Part shown: positions 9,001 to 12,000 of the stretch, one piece after another | Layout: every line of letters begins with the position of its first letter | How positions within the stretch are numbered: position 1 is the stretch's first letter | Source of the DNA: Escherichia coli | GTDB taxonomy: Bacteria > Pseudomonadota > Gammaproteobacteria > Enterobacterales > Enterobacteriaceae | Length of the DNA: 27,246 bases | Assembly (NCBI RefSeq): GCF_003334255.1 | Contig: NZ_QOWU01000062.1 | Direction: 5' to 3' (one strand) | Program-made: the position numbers

Positions 9001-12000
9001 CTTTCTGGTGATCTTCGGTCATCGCCGATAAATTAGCCTCCAGTTCGGCTATGCGTTTGCTTTGGGCTTCCCGTTCATCCAGCAGAGCCTGCACAATCGA
9101 TGGTGTTACCAGCTCATGGAAAAGGTCCGCGTCAAATCCCCTGTCGTCATGCATTGCCTGCTCTGCCGCCTCACGCAGTGTCTGATAGTTAATCTTGCTC
9201 ACTGGTTGCCACCTGATTTTCAGCCTTCAGCACCATGCGGGAGCCATCTTCCATTTCCCACATAATTTCACCACCTTCTGCCATGACCAGATGCCAGACA
9301 AGCTGAGCCGCCTCGTTGGTTACATCGCGGCCGGGATCATTTCCGACACGAAGACTGGTTCCGTCGTCAAGATTACGCATTTTTGCCAGCACGATAGTTT
9401 TTGAAAACGGAGAAAAACCCAGCTGGAGTCTTGCTGCATTACTCATCTTTCCACCTCACTTCAGTCTCATGTTGTTGTATCGTTCATGACTCAACAGGGC
9501 CCAGGTCAGCCCTTTATTCCGGCTCAGTAACCGCCAGTCAGGACCAACATCAATCTTGAAATAACCAAATCCCCTTTCCTTCAGTTCATGATAATTCCGC
9601 TCTCCACGACGGAAGCGATTGACCAGTTCAACCGCCTTACGCTGACTGGCGGGAGGGACGCCCGGACTTGTCAGCACTCCGGGAACCAGTTCTGTCATCT
9701 TCATGACGCACTCCTTACCTGATCCGGATTTCCGGTTGTATGCCACCCTCTGACGGCATGCCAGATGGCCGTCAGTGGAATGTTCATCTGTTCAGCACAA
9801 AGCATCATGACATCCAGCCCATCCACACTCTCCACATCATTGATCCCGGCTTTCTGCCACAACCGCCAGAGTTCAGAATTCTCATCGTCACTCAGGGTGA
9901 TCCCCCTTCCGGGACGAACATCAATACCGGAGATACGACGCCGCGCAGCCACATCCACGCTGGAAAGACCAAAATAAAACGCCATGAGTTCGATAGACCC
10001 ACCCAGCGCCAGAGCGCGATCGATTCGCTGCAGACGTTTCTGTTCAGTCCGCGCCTGCTGCAACATGCGCACAAGATTGTTGTGGTTAATATCCAGCCGC
10101 AGCACCGACACTTCTGAATTTGACAGATAGTGAATTTCTTCAATGCTCAGCCCCTGCAGCATCTGCATTTCTTCCCGGGAAAGCCCCAGCGCTTCACATC
10201 GCCGCAGATAGCCACTCTTGAGATCCATCACCAGTTGCATCAACAGCCCGTTGGTGGCCTGTGATAAGTTGTTACTCATACCTCACCTCCGCCCGATATC
10301 AGGCTTTCAGGTCTCAGATTCCGGGAACCAACACCATGATGCAGTGTTGCCTTTTTACCCTCGCTGTATCCCTGCCAGCGTGCACGATCACCACCATTAC
10401 AGTCCTTAACATTCCGGAAGGCAGCCATTCCCTCAAATTGCTGTCTCTTCAGCCACGTCTTCATTACACGCGTCTCATCTTCCGTGAGCGGGAATGCATC
10501 CACCACATCACGCACCCCATAAACCCAGCCGTCACGAAACATGGCTGCTCTTGCCCTTCGGGTTGACAATTTTAATGTCCGGCTCTGGGTTGAAAGATAC
10601 GCCTTTGTTGCCTTTTGCATCTGCCGGCAGAGAACATCAAAGGCATACGCCGCCACAACCGGGCGCTCCCCAAAGCCATAAAATATGACAACCCGCCGCC
10701 AGTACCTTCCGGTTGTGATACGCCAGTCCAGGTATGTATGGCATCCGAATGCCTCTGCAACAACATGCATAAGGCGCCCCATCCATACCGGAACTTTTTC
10801 CGCTTCTGACGGGGCCCCCTTTGATGACGAGGTCTTTATCACCGAAATATCAGTATCCAGTTCAGTGATACCGTGCTTGCGCATCAGCGCCTGAGCACGG
10901 GAAAGTGCCTGGCCTGCCTCATGGGGGTTACTGTTATTCCGGCTCAGCGCCAGCAGTTTTCTTATCCGTTTAATCAGTTGATCCTGACGTGCGGCATCAG
11001 CATTCATCGCGCCCTTCCTCACTCTCGTCTTCCACCATACGCTGCAGCCCCCGCAGACGACGCAACACACCCAGCAGGCGAAGCAACTTTCCTGCATGTT
11101 CATCATCAAGCAACGGCAGGTCTTCTTCAGTACTGCCGCCGATCAGCAGTGCATCAAGGGAAACCGGATTGACCCGCAGAACCTCCTCACCGGTCAGTCT
11201 GACAAGAAATGCCATGACCGGTGAGCAATTTGCCTCTGCCGCACCAAATCCTGCAGACAGCTCACTTTCCCGGTCCATCGCTATCTCATCGACACAGCCT
11301 GTATGTGACGCCAGATCCCATGCGAGGTGAAACGCCTCATTCTGCAAAGATTCGATATCATCCTGTTCAGCACCAGTGAATGCAGATGCCTGGCGAAATT
11401 CTCCCCCCTCCTGCATGGCGTTATCTTCCGGCATTATCGGTATATCAGTTGACGCACCGGTCGCATCCTCTCCGCAATCACCGCTGTATGAGTCTTCACC
11501 ACCATACATATCCGGTTGAACTTCCGTTCTGCGTTGTTCGCGTTTATCTGCGACCGGGCGGTCCTCTTTCTCAGCCCCTGATTGCGCAGTATCCATGACG
11601 CTCTCACTGTCTGCGGGAGTGGCGGCAACGACCTGAGCAGCTTCCGTCGCCCCGCCTGACGCCACCTGCGCCCCCGGTTCCGGGGGGCTGTCCGCCGGCA
11701 TGAGTACCGGTTCAGGTTCACCAAAATGGTGACGTCGATTACGCTCCCGGGGATCCAGCTCCAGCAACCAGCGATCGTAATCCAGTACCGGATGTGGCAG
11801 AGCCTTCAGCAGGTCACCGATCAGCTCGTCCCTGAACATTTCCATGGACCAGAGTTCCGGCGAGTTGAATTTGCCGCAACATTCACCAAACACGCGATCA
11901 AAATCCACATCGTTTTCCGCCGCGACTGCAAACTGCCCCCAGATGCGTTCCGCATCCTGCCGGAGAGACAGTAAGGCTCTGACCTGTGGGCTCCCCATAC

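What the first reader, a model, noticed from the sequence alone, without database searches (positions are those of the whole stretch)
9189..9704. Possible small toxin-antitoxin-like pair (82-aa and 85-aa proteins); weak evidence
Seen: the 82-aa protein ends ...GFGYFKIDVGPDWRLLSRNKGLTWALLSHERYNNMRLK, loosely recalling the C-terminal beta-strand and His/Tyr pattern of RelE/YafQ-type toxins, and it is followed 10 nt later by an acidic 85-aa protein. This is a pattern-level impression only and the gene order (toxin first) would be atypical for RelE-like pairs.
Basis: inference. Interest (0 to 1): 0.3.

Follow-up and report, generated by a model that had tools for sequence, protein, structure and literature searches.

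The report
Orphan RelE/ParE-fold gene beside phage cassette
The two small genes are real and the first does have a RelE/ParE toxin fold, but they are not a toxin-antitoxin pair: the toxin-like gene is attached to the master activator operon of an E. coli conjugative island, and the acidic gene is the first gene of an unrelated phage-type cassette inserted next to it.

Summary
Both ORFs exist on the minus strand: 82 aa at 9456-9704 and 85 aa at 9189-9446, 9 nt apart. Both are under purifying selection.

The 82-aa protein (pI 10.5) matches Pfam ParE_like PF24732 (E 8e-18). Its confident AlphaFold model (pLDDT 89.7) matches only RelE/ParE-superfamily toxins: YafQ, RelE, HigB, YoeB, ParE.

The 85-aa protein (pI 4.7) is DUF7446 and is not a cognate antitoxin:
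- In E. coli complete genomes the ParE-like gene occurs in 92 genomes. Every sampled copy overlaps the stop of the upstream DUF2857 gene (ATGA); DUF2857 is the domain found in BisC of ICEclc.
- Only about 26 of those genomes have DUF7446 downstream.
- DUF7446 occurs in 232 genomes, mostly in prophages, with a 14-nt overlap onto Ead/Ea22 genes.
- Related islands place a 58-aa protein, an Ead-like protein or the STY4528-family gene after the ParE-like gene.
- In phages the two families essentially never co-occur.

No conserved partner, own promoter or terminator was found.

Best reading: an antitoxin-less RelE/ParE-fold accessory protein, co-translated with BisC in an SPI-7/ICEclc-type island, sits next to a phage-derived cassette. 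RefSeq already gives both proteins these family names. Interest is low.

The parts
9456..9704 (-). 82-aa basic protein (pI 10.5) of Pfam ParE_like PF24732 / phrog_1525, with a RelE/ParE-superfamily fold. Its start overlaps the stop of the upstream DUF2857 gene (ATGA).
   Evidence: RefSeq WP_001682043.1 'ParE family toxin-like protein'
9447..9455 (-). 9-nt spacer GGTGGAAAG. A Shine-Dalgarno-like GAGGTGG overlaps the stop codon of the 82-aa gene.
9189..9446 (-). 85-aa acidic protein (pI 4.7) of DUF7446 PF24233 / phrog_1578. It is the first gene of a phage-type accessory cassette and overlaps the next gene by 14 nt, as it does in P22-like and lambdoid phages.
8594..9202 (-). Ead/Ea22-like protein (202 aa), the conserved downstream partner of DUF7446.
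7887..8597 (-). Second Ead/Ea22-like protein (236 aa).
7451..7890 (-). Two small hypothetical genes (75 aa, phrog_5994; 71 aa) that end the variable cassette.
5902..7188 (-). STY4528-family island replication protein. In islands without the cassette this gene directly follows the ParE-like gene.
9701..10279 (-). DUF2857 protein (192 aa). DUF2857 is the Pfam domain found in BisC, a subunit of the BisDC transfer-competence activator of ICEclc.
10276..11007 (-). DUF2786/DUF7168 protein. It is replaced by a TraR/DksA zinc-finger gene in some related islands.
10997..12622 (-). ParB-family protein, in the position and with the domain type of BisD.
12612..14000 (-). SPI-7-type island DnaB helicase, the first gene of the uninterrupted run of overlapping genes.

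Best explanation
The two ORFs are neighbours by mosaic accident, not a toxin-antitoxin module.

The 82-aa gene encodes a small RelE/ParE-fold protein (Pfam PF24732). In a subfamily of SPI-7/ICEclc-type integrative conjugative elements it sits at the end of the dnaB-parB(bisD)-DUF2786-DUF2857(bisC) gene run and is translationally coupled (ATGA) to the DUF2857 gene.

The 85-aa DUF7446 gene is the first gene of a phage-derived 'ea-region' cassette (DUF7446, two Ead/Ea22 genes, two small ORFs). That cassette occupies the variable slot between the ParE-like gene and the STY4528-family gene.

Shown:
- the fold of the 82-aa protein;
- its family membership;
- the gene linkage patterns;
- purifying selection on both genes;
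- the absence of any conserved small partner.

Inferred:
- Mechanism. The ParE-like protein is an antitoxin-free effector whose activity is limited by when its operon is transcribed, not by a cognate antitoxin. In ICEclc the equivalent alpA-to-orf96323 transcript is switched on by BisDC only in transfer-competent cells.
- Activity. Given its nearest structural neighbours (YafQ, HigB, YoeB, RelE) and its conserved R58, H73, E74 and Y76, the most likely activity is ribosome-associated mRNA cleavage or another growth-modulating action during element activation or entry. T4 RegB, a phage early RelE/YoeB-fold RNase with no known antitoxin, is a comparable case.
- DUF7446. It most likely works with Ead/Ea22 on a conserved host target.
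For: Fold:
- Pfam ParE_like, E 8e-18.
- AF2 model pLDDT 89.7, pTM 0.75.
- Foldseek PDB: YafQ 0.99; HigB, RelE2 and YoeB 0.84-0.97; ParE2 only 0.2-0.3.
- The family motif VGxxWRLLSxDxGxxWxLMSHExYN has R58 invariant and W57, H73 and Y76 at >=90%.

Linkage to DUF2857:
- The ParE-like gene occurs in 92 of 5426 E. coli genomes. It overlaps the DUF2857 gene in all 30 rows sampled across the ranking.
- The same arrangement is seen in Citrobacter, Erwinia pEB102, metagenomic islands and a locus with only 43% ParE-like and 47.5% DUF2857 identity.

No cognate antitoxin. The downstream gene varies:
- DUF7446 (L001, L017);
- a 58-aa phrog_519 protein (L015);
- a 91-aa Ead-like protein (L016, L009);
- the STY4528-family gene directly (L013, L014, L021, L107, L108, L110).
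All-against-all BLAST of neighbours found no hidden shared partner.

Phage contexts:
- In 80 IMG/VR loci the neighbours are an uncharacterised 191-aa protein upstream (62 loci; I read its N-terminus as exonuclease-like), a Dam-type methylase downstream (58 loci; read from its N-terminus and the SW3 annotation), a zinc-finger-like protein, or a 338-aa protein I read as PAPS-reductase-like.
- Family members also occur in the phages RaK2 and fHe-Yen9-04, which I take from my own knowledge to be virulent.

DUF7446 belongs with Ead/Ea22:
- It occurs in 232 E. coli genomes and 262 places, mostly next to Ead/Ea22, DUF2737 or DUF4752 genes.
- The same 14-nt overlap with EaD/Ea22-region genes is seen in Salmonella phage 29485 and a Lederbergvirus.
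- Mean column identity is 78% across phages of several genera.

Allele independence: the L017 ParE-like allele is L015-type for residues 1-63 and window-type afterwards, followed by a 98%-identical DUF7446. This places a crossover inside the ParE-like gene. The same L015-type allele exists without DUF7446.

Operon structure:
- Overlaps or a 9-nt gap join every gene from dnaB to the last cassette gene.
- There is no promoter-like site in the interval, and only one weak terminator-like hairpin on the minus strand, inside parB.

BisDC role and the extent of the alpA-orf96323 transcript: eLife 2020, PMC7423338. RegB as a RelE/YoeB-fold phage RNase: PMC3014915.
Against: - No experiment exists for any PF24732 or DUF7446 member (no hits for either accession/name in the searched library), so toxicity, RNase activity and targets are all inference.
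- Adjacency, SD-coupled translation, similar sizes and the strong charge complementarity (pI 10.5 versus 4.7) are what a toxin-first (HigBA-like) pair would look like.
- The alternative downstream gene in L015 appears rich in acidic residues by inspection (pI not computed), so interchangeable acidic neutralisers cannot be formally excluded.
- The DUF7446 model was too poor (pLDDT 48.9) to rule out an antitoxin-like fold.
- The equivalence of this island's DUF2857 protein and BisC rests on the shared Pfam domain and synteny. I did not compare the sequences directly.
Confidence: 0.6

Rival explanations
1. A genuine toxin-first type II toxin-antitoxin pair. The 82-aa RelE/ParE-fold toxin is neutralised by binding of the acidic 85-aa DUF7446 protein, and the pair stabilises the island.
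For: - A 9-nt gap with a Shine-Dalgarno sequence overlapping the toxin stop codon.
- Sizes of 82 and 85 aa, and pI 10.47 versus 4.70.
- A toxin fold.
- Toxin-first order is known for HigBA (my own knowledge).
- The arrangement is kept in about 26 E. coli genomes and in the mosaic L017.
Against: - There is no co-inheritance. About 66 of 92 E. coli genomes with the ParE-like gene lack an adjacent DUF7446, and about 206 of 232 genomes with DUF7446 lack an adjacent ParE-like gene.
- Only 2 of 80 viral loci have both, and those two are the same island.
- Six backbone loci have no small gene at all after the ParE-like gene.
- DUF7446 is about 80% identical in phages that lack the ParE-like gene. That is unlike a co-evolving antitoxin.
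- DUF7446 has no detected DNA-binding domain.
- The pair has no promoter-like site of its own.
Confidence: 0.08
2. The functional partner is the upstream DUF2857 (BisC-like) protein. The ParE-like protein binds or modulates the BisDC-type activator, or BisC doubles as its neutraliser, giving an antitoxin-first arrangement.
For: - The ATGA overlap with the DUF2857 gene is present in every island locus examined, down to 43% ParE-like and 47.5% DUF2857 identity. Erwinia pEB102 is an exception, with a 45-nt gap.
- About 100 of 129 E. coli DUF2857 loci carry the ParE-like gene.
- BisC is a subunit of a DNA-binding regulator, as antitoxins usually are (PMC7423338).
Against: - PF24732 genes occur in phages and in a conjugative transfer-gene (TraP/TraV/TraR) cluster without any DUF2857 gene.
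- Some E. coli islands have XF1762-family and hypothetical genes in this slot instead.
- ICEclc BisDC works without it. By ORF numbering, bisC there is followed directly by orf96323.
Confidence: 0.15
3. The 82-aa protein is a catalytically inert, domesticated RelE/ParE-fold protein with a non-toxic role, such as a nucleic-acid or protein binder or an anti-defence or anti-restriction accessory. It needs no antitoxin because it is harmless.
For: - No conserved antitoxin in any context.
- Frequent neighbours are DNA methylases, a Lar-like restriction-alleviation protein and TraR/DksA-type zinc fingers, which points to entry or establishment functions.
- It falls outside the classical ParE_toxin Pfam model, because only PF24732 was reported.
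- No significant profile match to YoeB, YafQ or RelE.
Against: - The nearly invariant polar residues R58, H73 and Y76, plus the mostly conserved E74 and N77, sit where RelE-type RNases place catalytic residues (combined with my own knowledge of YoeB and YafQ).
- The protein is strongly basic, like the ribosome- or RNA-binding toxins.
Confidence: 0.2

Closest known systems
RelE/ParE toxin superfamily (YafQ, RelE, HigB, YoeB, ParE; type II TA toxins)
   Same: - Basic charge.
- A WRLL beta-strand motif, with His and Tyr after the last strand.
- Pfam files it as ParE_like.
   Different: - No cognate, co-inherited antitoxin.
- Not in a two-gene autoregulated operon.
- No hit to the classical ParE_toxin model.
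- Only one long N-terminal helix is predicted.
- Sequence and profile similarity to YoeB, YafQ and RelE is not significant.
- Activity is untested.
Bacteriophage T4 RegB endoribonuclease
   Same: - A RelE/YoeB-fold protein encoded by a mobile element in an early or activation operon.
- No known antitoxin partner.
- It is used to reshape mRNA populations rather than for addiction (PMC3014915).
   Different: - No sequence relationship was shown here.
- RegB is larger and has an extra helix.
- RNase activity of the 82-aa protein is only inferred.
HigBA-type (toxin-first) TA modules
   Same: - Toxin gene upstream of a small acidic gene.
- Short spacer.
- HigB is among the top structural matches.
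   Different: - HigA is an HTH DNA-binding antitoxin that is co-inherited with HigB.
- DUF7446 has no detected DNA-binding domain and is inherited independently.
ICEclc alpA-parA-shi-bisD-bisC-orf96323 operon (BisDC bistability module)
   Same: - The same backbone order, ParB-type gene then DUF2857 gene then a gene of about 415 aa, in an SPI-7/PAGI-2/ICEclc-family island.
- The ParE-like gene lies where that transcript runs.
   Different: - ICEclc has no ParE-like gene between bisC and orf96323.
- This island has dnaB and DUF2786 in the run.
- Regulation in E. coli is untested.
Lambdoid/P22-like phage 'ea' region (Ead/Ea22 accessory genes)
   Same: - The DUF7446 to Ead/Ea22 arrangement, with the identical 14-nt overlap.
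- About 80% protein identity.
   Different: - Here the cassette sits inside a conjugative island operon instead of a phage early-left operon.
- Its function is unknown in both settings.

Membership tests
RelE/ParE toxin superfamily (fold level) | Compact alpha/beta fold, with N-terminal helices packed on a 3-5-stranded antiparallel sheet, that superposes on solved RelE, YoeB, YafQ, HigB or ParE structures | tested here: met
   - AF2 model pLDDT 89.7.
- Foldseek probability up to 0.99.
- Pfam PF24732, E 8e-18.
RelE-type ribosome-dependent mRNA interferases (RelE, YoeB, YafQ, HigB) | Catalytic residues on the sheet and C-terminus, for example YoeB E46/R65/H83/Y84 or YafQ H50/H63/D67/H87/F91 | tested here: inconclusive
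   - The family conserves R58 (invariant), H73 and Y76 (>=90%), and E74 and N77 (most members).
- hhalign aligns the WRLL strand with the YoeB HRLV strand and the YafQ DWILIY strand, but at probability below 1%.
ParE gyrase poisons | Membership of the classical ParE_toxin sequence family and inhibition of DNA gyrase | tested here: not met
   - The Pfam scan reported only ParE_like PF24732 and no ParE_toxin hit.
- Gyrase inhibition cannot be tested here.
Type II toxin-antitoxin module | Cognate antitoxin gene adjacent to the toxin and co-inherited with it across relatives | tested here: not met
   - About 26 of 92 E. coli genomes, and 2 of 80 viral loci, have DUF7446 next to the ParE-like gene.
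- Six backbone loci have no small neighbour at all.
- No homologous partner was found among the neighbours.
Type II toxin-antitoxin module | Antitoxin carries a DNA-binding domain (RHH, HTH, Phd/YefM, AbrB) plus a toxin-binding region | tested here: inconclusive
   - The 85-aa protein hits only DUF7446 in Pfam.
- It has no PDB, NCBIfam or PADLOC hit.
- Its AF2 model is unreliable (pLDDT 48.9).
Type II toxin-antitoxin module | Self-contained, autoregulated two-gene operon with its own promoter | tested here: not met
   - ATGA overlap with the upstream DUF2857 gene and a 14-nt overlap with the downstream Ead/Ea22 gene.
- No promoter-like site and no convincing terminator between dnaB and the end of the cassette.
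- This was a consensus scan only.
Type II toxin-antitoxin module | Toxin arrests growth and the antitoxin neutralises it by direct binding | not testable with these tools
   Needs expression and rescue assays and interaction assays.
Pfam DUF7446 (PF24233) / phrog_1578 | Significant match to the family profile | tested here: met
   - E 4.9e-15 over residues 7-76.
- phrog_1578, E 4e-30.
- 302 clusters of close relatives.
BisDC-type regulatory module of SPI-7/PAGI-2/ICEclc-family ICEs (context) | A ParB-domain gene followed by a DUF2857 gene within an island carrying parA, dnaB-PI, topoisomerase III, ssb, and PFL_4669 and STY4528 family genes | tested here: met
   - RefSeq annotation of the sequence-identical locus (identity checked to window position 16587).
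- DUF2857 is the domain reported in BisC.
- Activator function in this island was not tested.

The most novel reading that the evidence does not exclude
PF24732 proteins are a distinct, antitoxin-free branch of the RelE/ParE superfamily. Integrative conjugative elements (after bisC), a conjugative transfer-gene cluster and phages (next to methylases and Lar/TraR-like genes, and possibly virulent jumbo phages) would all deploy them as a built-in cistron of their activation or entry operons. They would act as an RNase or growth-arrest effector. The activity would be controlled by the timing of transcription, here the bistable BisDC switch, rather than by a cognate antitoxin.
Probability: 0.3. 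Interest if true: 0.5.

Novelty: already known. Interest (0 to 1): 0.2.

Why it matters
Practically, it is a caution for annotation. A RelE/ParE-fold gene followed closely by a small acidic gene looks like a toxin-antitoxin pair. Comparative genomics shows that the two belong to different modules, so the locus should not be counted as a TA or addiction system.

Biologically, the modest point of interest is the position of the toxin-fold gene. It has no partner and is translationally coupled to the BisC-like subunit of the master activator of a widespread family of pathogenicity-island-type conjugative elements. If the protein is active, it could contribute to the growth cost or mRNA remodelling of transfer-competent cells. 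That can be tested with simple expression and deletion experiments.

Tried and rejected
- NCBIfam and PADLOC gave no hits for either protein.
- PDB sequence searches, with the single sequences and with the family profile, gave only chance matches.
- hhalign of the family alignment against E. coli YoeB, YafQ and RelE was not significant.
- The word-indexed homologue search found only 5 close relatives of the 82-aa protein. The exhaustive representative search was needed and found 35 clusters.
- The DUF7446 structure prediction failed (pLDDT 48.9), so I did no fold search for it.
A 15-sequence alignment worked.
- Literature searches for DUF7446 and PF24732 returned nothing.
- The Rfam scan found no RNA antitoxin or other RNA near the pair.
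- My first guess, that the window was an IncF/IncI plasmid leading region, was rejected. Plasmid hits covered only the Ead/Ea22 genes, and the locus is chromosomal island DNA.
- I also considered whether the neighbours of PF24732 genes hide a shared, unannotated antitoxin. All-against-all BLAST and clustering of neighbours rejected this.
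Full report
**Observation**

The region 9189-9704 holds two minus-strand ORFs.
- The 82-aa ORF runs from the ATG at 9704 to 9456. Its sequence is MKMTELVPGV...HERYNNMRLK.
- The 85-aa ORF runs from the ATG at 9446 to 9189.
- The spacer is 9 nt (GGTGGAAAG), and a GAGGTGG Shine-Dalgarno overlaps the first gene's stop codon.
- The 82-aa ATG has AAGGAG 6 nt upstream. It overlaps the TGA of the preceding 192-aa gene as ATGA.
- The 85-aa gene overlaps the next gene by 14 nt.
- The proteins are basic (pI 10.47) and acidic (pI 4.70).

Both are real genes.
- Pfam gives ParE_like PF24732 (E 8.4e-18) and DUF7446 PF24233 (E 4.9e-15).
- PHROGs gives phrog_1525 and phrog_1578, both of unknown function.
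- dN/dS against diverged alleles is 0.07-0.16 and 0.13-0.28.
- The first 16.6 kb of the window is essentially identical to the E. coli 2015C-3121 chromosome. RefSeq there names the proteins 'ParE family toxin-like protein' and 'DUF7446 family protein'.

**Context**

The genes lie in an SPI-7/PAGI-2/ICEclc-type integrative conjugative element. Reading along the minus strand, the order is:
- ParA, a hypothetical gene, dnaB-PI;
- ParB-family, DUF2786, DUF2857;
- ParE-like, DUF7446, Ead/Ea22, Ead/Ea22, two small ORFs;
- STY4528 family, PFL_4669 family, topoisomerase III, STY4534 family, ssb.

From dnaB to the last small ORF every junction is an overlap or the 9-nt gap. In that interval the consensus scan found no promoter-like site and only one weak terminator-like hairpin on that strand, inside parB.

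DUF2857 is the domain of BisC, and the ParB-domain protein corresponds to BisD. Together these form the BisDC activator, which switches ICEclc into transfer competence. In ICEclc one transcript runs from alpA through bisDC to orf96323 (PMC7423338). I infer the equivalence of this island's genes from the shared domains and synteny. I did not compare the sequences directly.

**The 82-aa protein**

An exhaustive search found a small family of 35 clusters at 50% identity. Its motif is VGxxWRLLSxDxGxxWxLMSHExYN.

AlphaFold with this alignment gave a confident model (pLDDT 89.7). The predicted elements are beta-beta-alpha(18-32)-beta-beta-beta-beta-alpha(73-81).
- Foldseek agreed: YafQ probability 0.99, and HigB, RelE2 and YoeB 0.84-0.97. 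ParE2 scored only 0.2-0.3.

Sequence-level links are absent.
- PDB searches found nothing meaningful.
- hhalign to E. coli YoeB, YafQ and RelE was not significant.

Whether the protein is an RNase, a gyrase poison or inert is open. Two things make an RNase-type site plausible, but this is inference:
- R58, H73 and Y76 (with E74 and N77) are conserved, and they sit on the exposed sheet face and the C-terminal helix.
- The structural neighbours are biased towards RNases.

**Is the 85-aa protein its antitoxin?**

The comparative evidence says no.

(a) E. coli complete genomes
- The ParE-like gene is in 92 of 5426 genomes. It overlaps the DUF2857 gene in all sampled rows.
- DUF7446 is in 232 genomes at 262 places. 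Most are next to Ead/Ea22, DUF2737 or DUF4752 genes in prophages and phage-plasmids.
- Only 26 genomes have both genes adjacent (identity bands).

(b) Related islands

| Gene after the ParE-like gene | Loci |
|---|---|
| 58-aa phrog_519 protein | L015 |
| 91-aa Ead-like protein | L016, L009 |
| STY4528-family gene, directly | L013, L014, L021, Erwinia pEB102, a Citrobacter element, E. coli MB06232 |

Some E. coli islands lack the ParE-like gene altogether and have XF1762-family and hypothetical genes in the slot.

(c) Phages
- 72 GenBank phage records encode a ParE-like relative and 21 encode DUF7446. Of the records listed, one has both, about 9 kb apart.
- Of the 80 best IMG/VR loci (446 in all), only the two that are this same island carry DUF7446.
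- The usual phage neighbours are an uncharacterised 191-aa protein upstream (which I read as exonuclease-like) and a Dam-type methylase downstream. Others are a zinc-finger-like protein, a protein I read as PAPS-reductase-like, and a Lar-like protein.
- No neighbour family is shared across contexts.
- Family members also occur in the phages RaK2 and fHe-Yen9-04.

(d) DUF7446 in phages
- It is about 80% identical in phages of Escherichia, Salmonella, Klebsiella and Yersinia, and 65-68% identical in Aeromonas and Proteus phages.
- It keeps the same 14-nt overlap with the Ead/Ea22-region gene. Its conserved partner is therefore Ead/Ea22.

(e) Recombination
- In strain 5CRE51 the ParE-like allele is L015-type up to residue 63 and window-type afterwards, followed by a 98%-identical DUF7446. 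A crossover inside the ParE-like gene therefore swapped the cassette.
- The same L015-type allele exists without DUF7446.

The DUF7446 structure could not be predicted reliably (pLDDT 48.9). An antitoxin-like fold is therefore neither shown nor excluded.

**Most likely explanation**

The ParE-like gene is an antitoxin-less RelE/ParE-fold accessory gene. It is co-translated with the BisC-like protein at the end of the island's activation and replication gene run. DUF7446 begins a phage-derived 'ea' cassette inserted in the variable slot before the STY4528-family gene.

I infer two further points:
- The ParE-like protein's activity is confined by when the operon is transcribed, not by an antitoxin.
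- It acts on translation or mRNA, or otherwise on host growth, in activated or newly colonised cells. T4 RegB is a precedent: a RelE/YoeB-fold early RNase without a known antitoxin (PMC3014915).

Confidence differs by layer:
- About 0.85 that this is not a cognate TA pair.
- About 0.9 for the fold.
- About 0.35 for the proposed activity.

Rivals and their probabilities:
- A true toxin-first TA pair, about 0.08.
- BisC as the functional partner, about 0.15. This is weakened by phage and plasmid contexts without DUF2857, and by islands and ICEclc without the ParE-like gene.
- An inert, domesticated fold with an establishment or anti-defence role, about 0.2.

**Novelty and verdict**

Identical proteins are already named with exactly these families in RefSeq and Pfam. 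I found no publications on either family.
- The TA-pair idea is not supported.
- The toxin-fold idea is supported.

The residual interest is the recurrent placement of an orphan RelE/ParE-fold gene inside the activation operons of mobile elements. Overall interest is low (0.2).

Noticed in passing
window 2251-2402 (-): A full-length STAXI RNA motif (Rfam RF01728, 134 bits, E 4e-29) lies between the STY4534-family gene and topoisomerase III of the island. It is the only Rfam hit in the window.
   Followed up: no
window ~16588-27246: Identity with E. coli 2015C-3121 ends at about 16588, just past parA. A strong hairpin with a T-run sits at 16623-16651. From 16763 the window carries a type II secretion cluster: yghD/gspM, L, K, J, H, F, E, D and C. 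This looks like the island/chromosome junction. ARAGORN found no tRNA in the window.
   Followed up: partly
L017 3501-4016 (E. coli 5CRE51) versus window 9189-9704: The ParE-like allele is a mosaic. It is L015-type for residues 1-63 and window-type from K64 on, followed by a 98%-identical DUF7446. This indicates a recombination crossover inside the ParE-like gene that exchanges the downstream cassette.
   Followed up: partly
slot between the DUF2857 and STY4528-family genes: window 7451-9704; L109 3124-4014; L015 3756-7185: This slot is a hotspot for accessory genes. The content varies by strain: ParE-like alone, ParE-like plus different phage-type 'ea' genes (with HNH endonuclease and many pseudogenised Ead fragments in some strains), or XF1762-family plus hypothetical genes without ParE-like.
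   Followed up: partly
L013 3179-3424, L014 3099-3350, L018 2401-2637, L032 3378-3605: TraR/DksA-type zinc-finger genes recur within one or two genes of PF24732 genes. This is seen in islands (where they replace DUF2786), in a conjugative transfer-gene cluster, and by sequence pattern in a group of prophages.
   Followed up: no
A2 alignment; P0043-P0046, P0062: DUF7446 is unusually conserved for a small phage accessory protein, with 78% mean column identity and an invariant GRDVTNEAAQ core. It also occurs as N-terminally extended forms of 134-149 aa, one of them fused to PF23768.
   Followed up: no
BFVD hits A0A2C9CWY5 and H6X4G1: PF24732-fold proteins (TM 0.72-0.84) are present in Yersinia phage fHe-Yen9-04 and Klebsiella phage RaK2, which I take from my own knowledge to be large virulent phages. 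An addiction role would make little sense in such phages.
   Followed up: no
L018 / L019 (metagenome contigs): A PF24732 gene sits inside a conjugative transfer-gene cluster (TraP ... TraV, TraR, a 103-aa ORF, ParE-like, then a 112-aa ORF with a Walker A motif). This shows a third type of mobile-element context.
   Followed up: no
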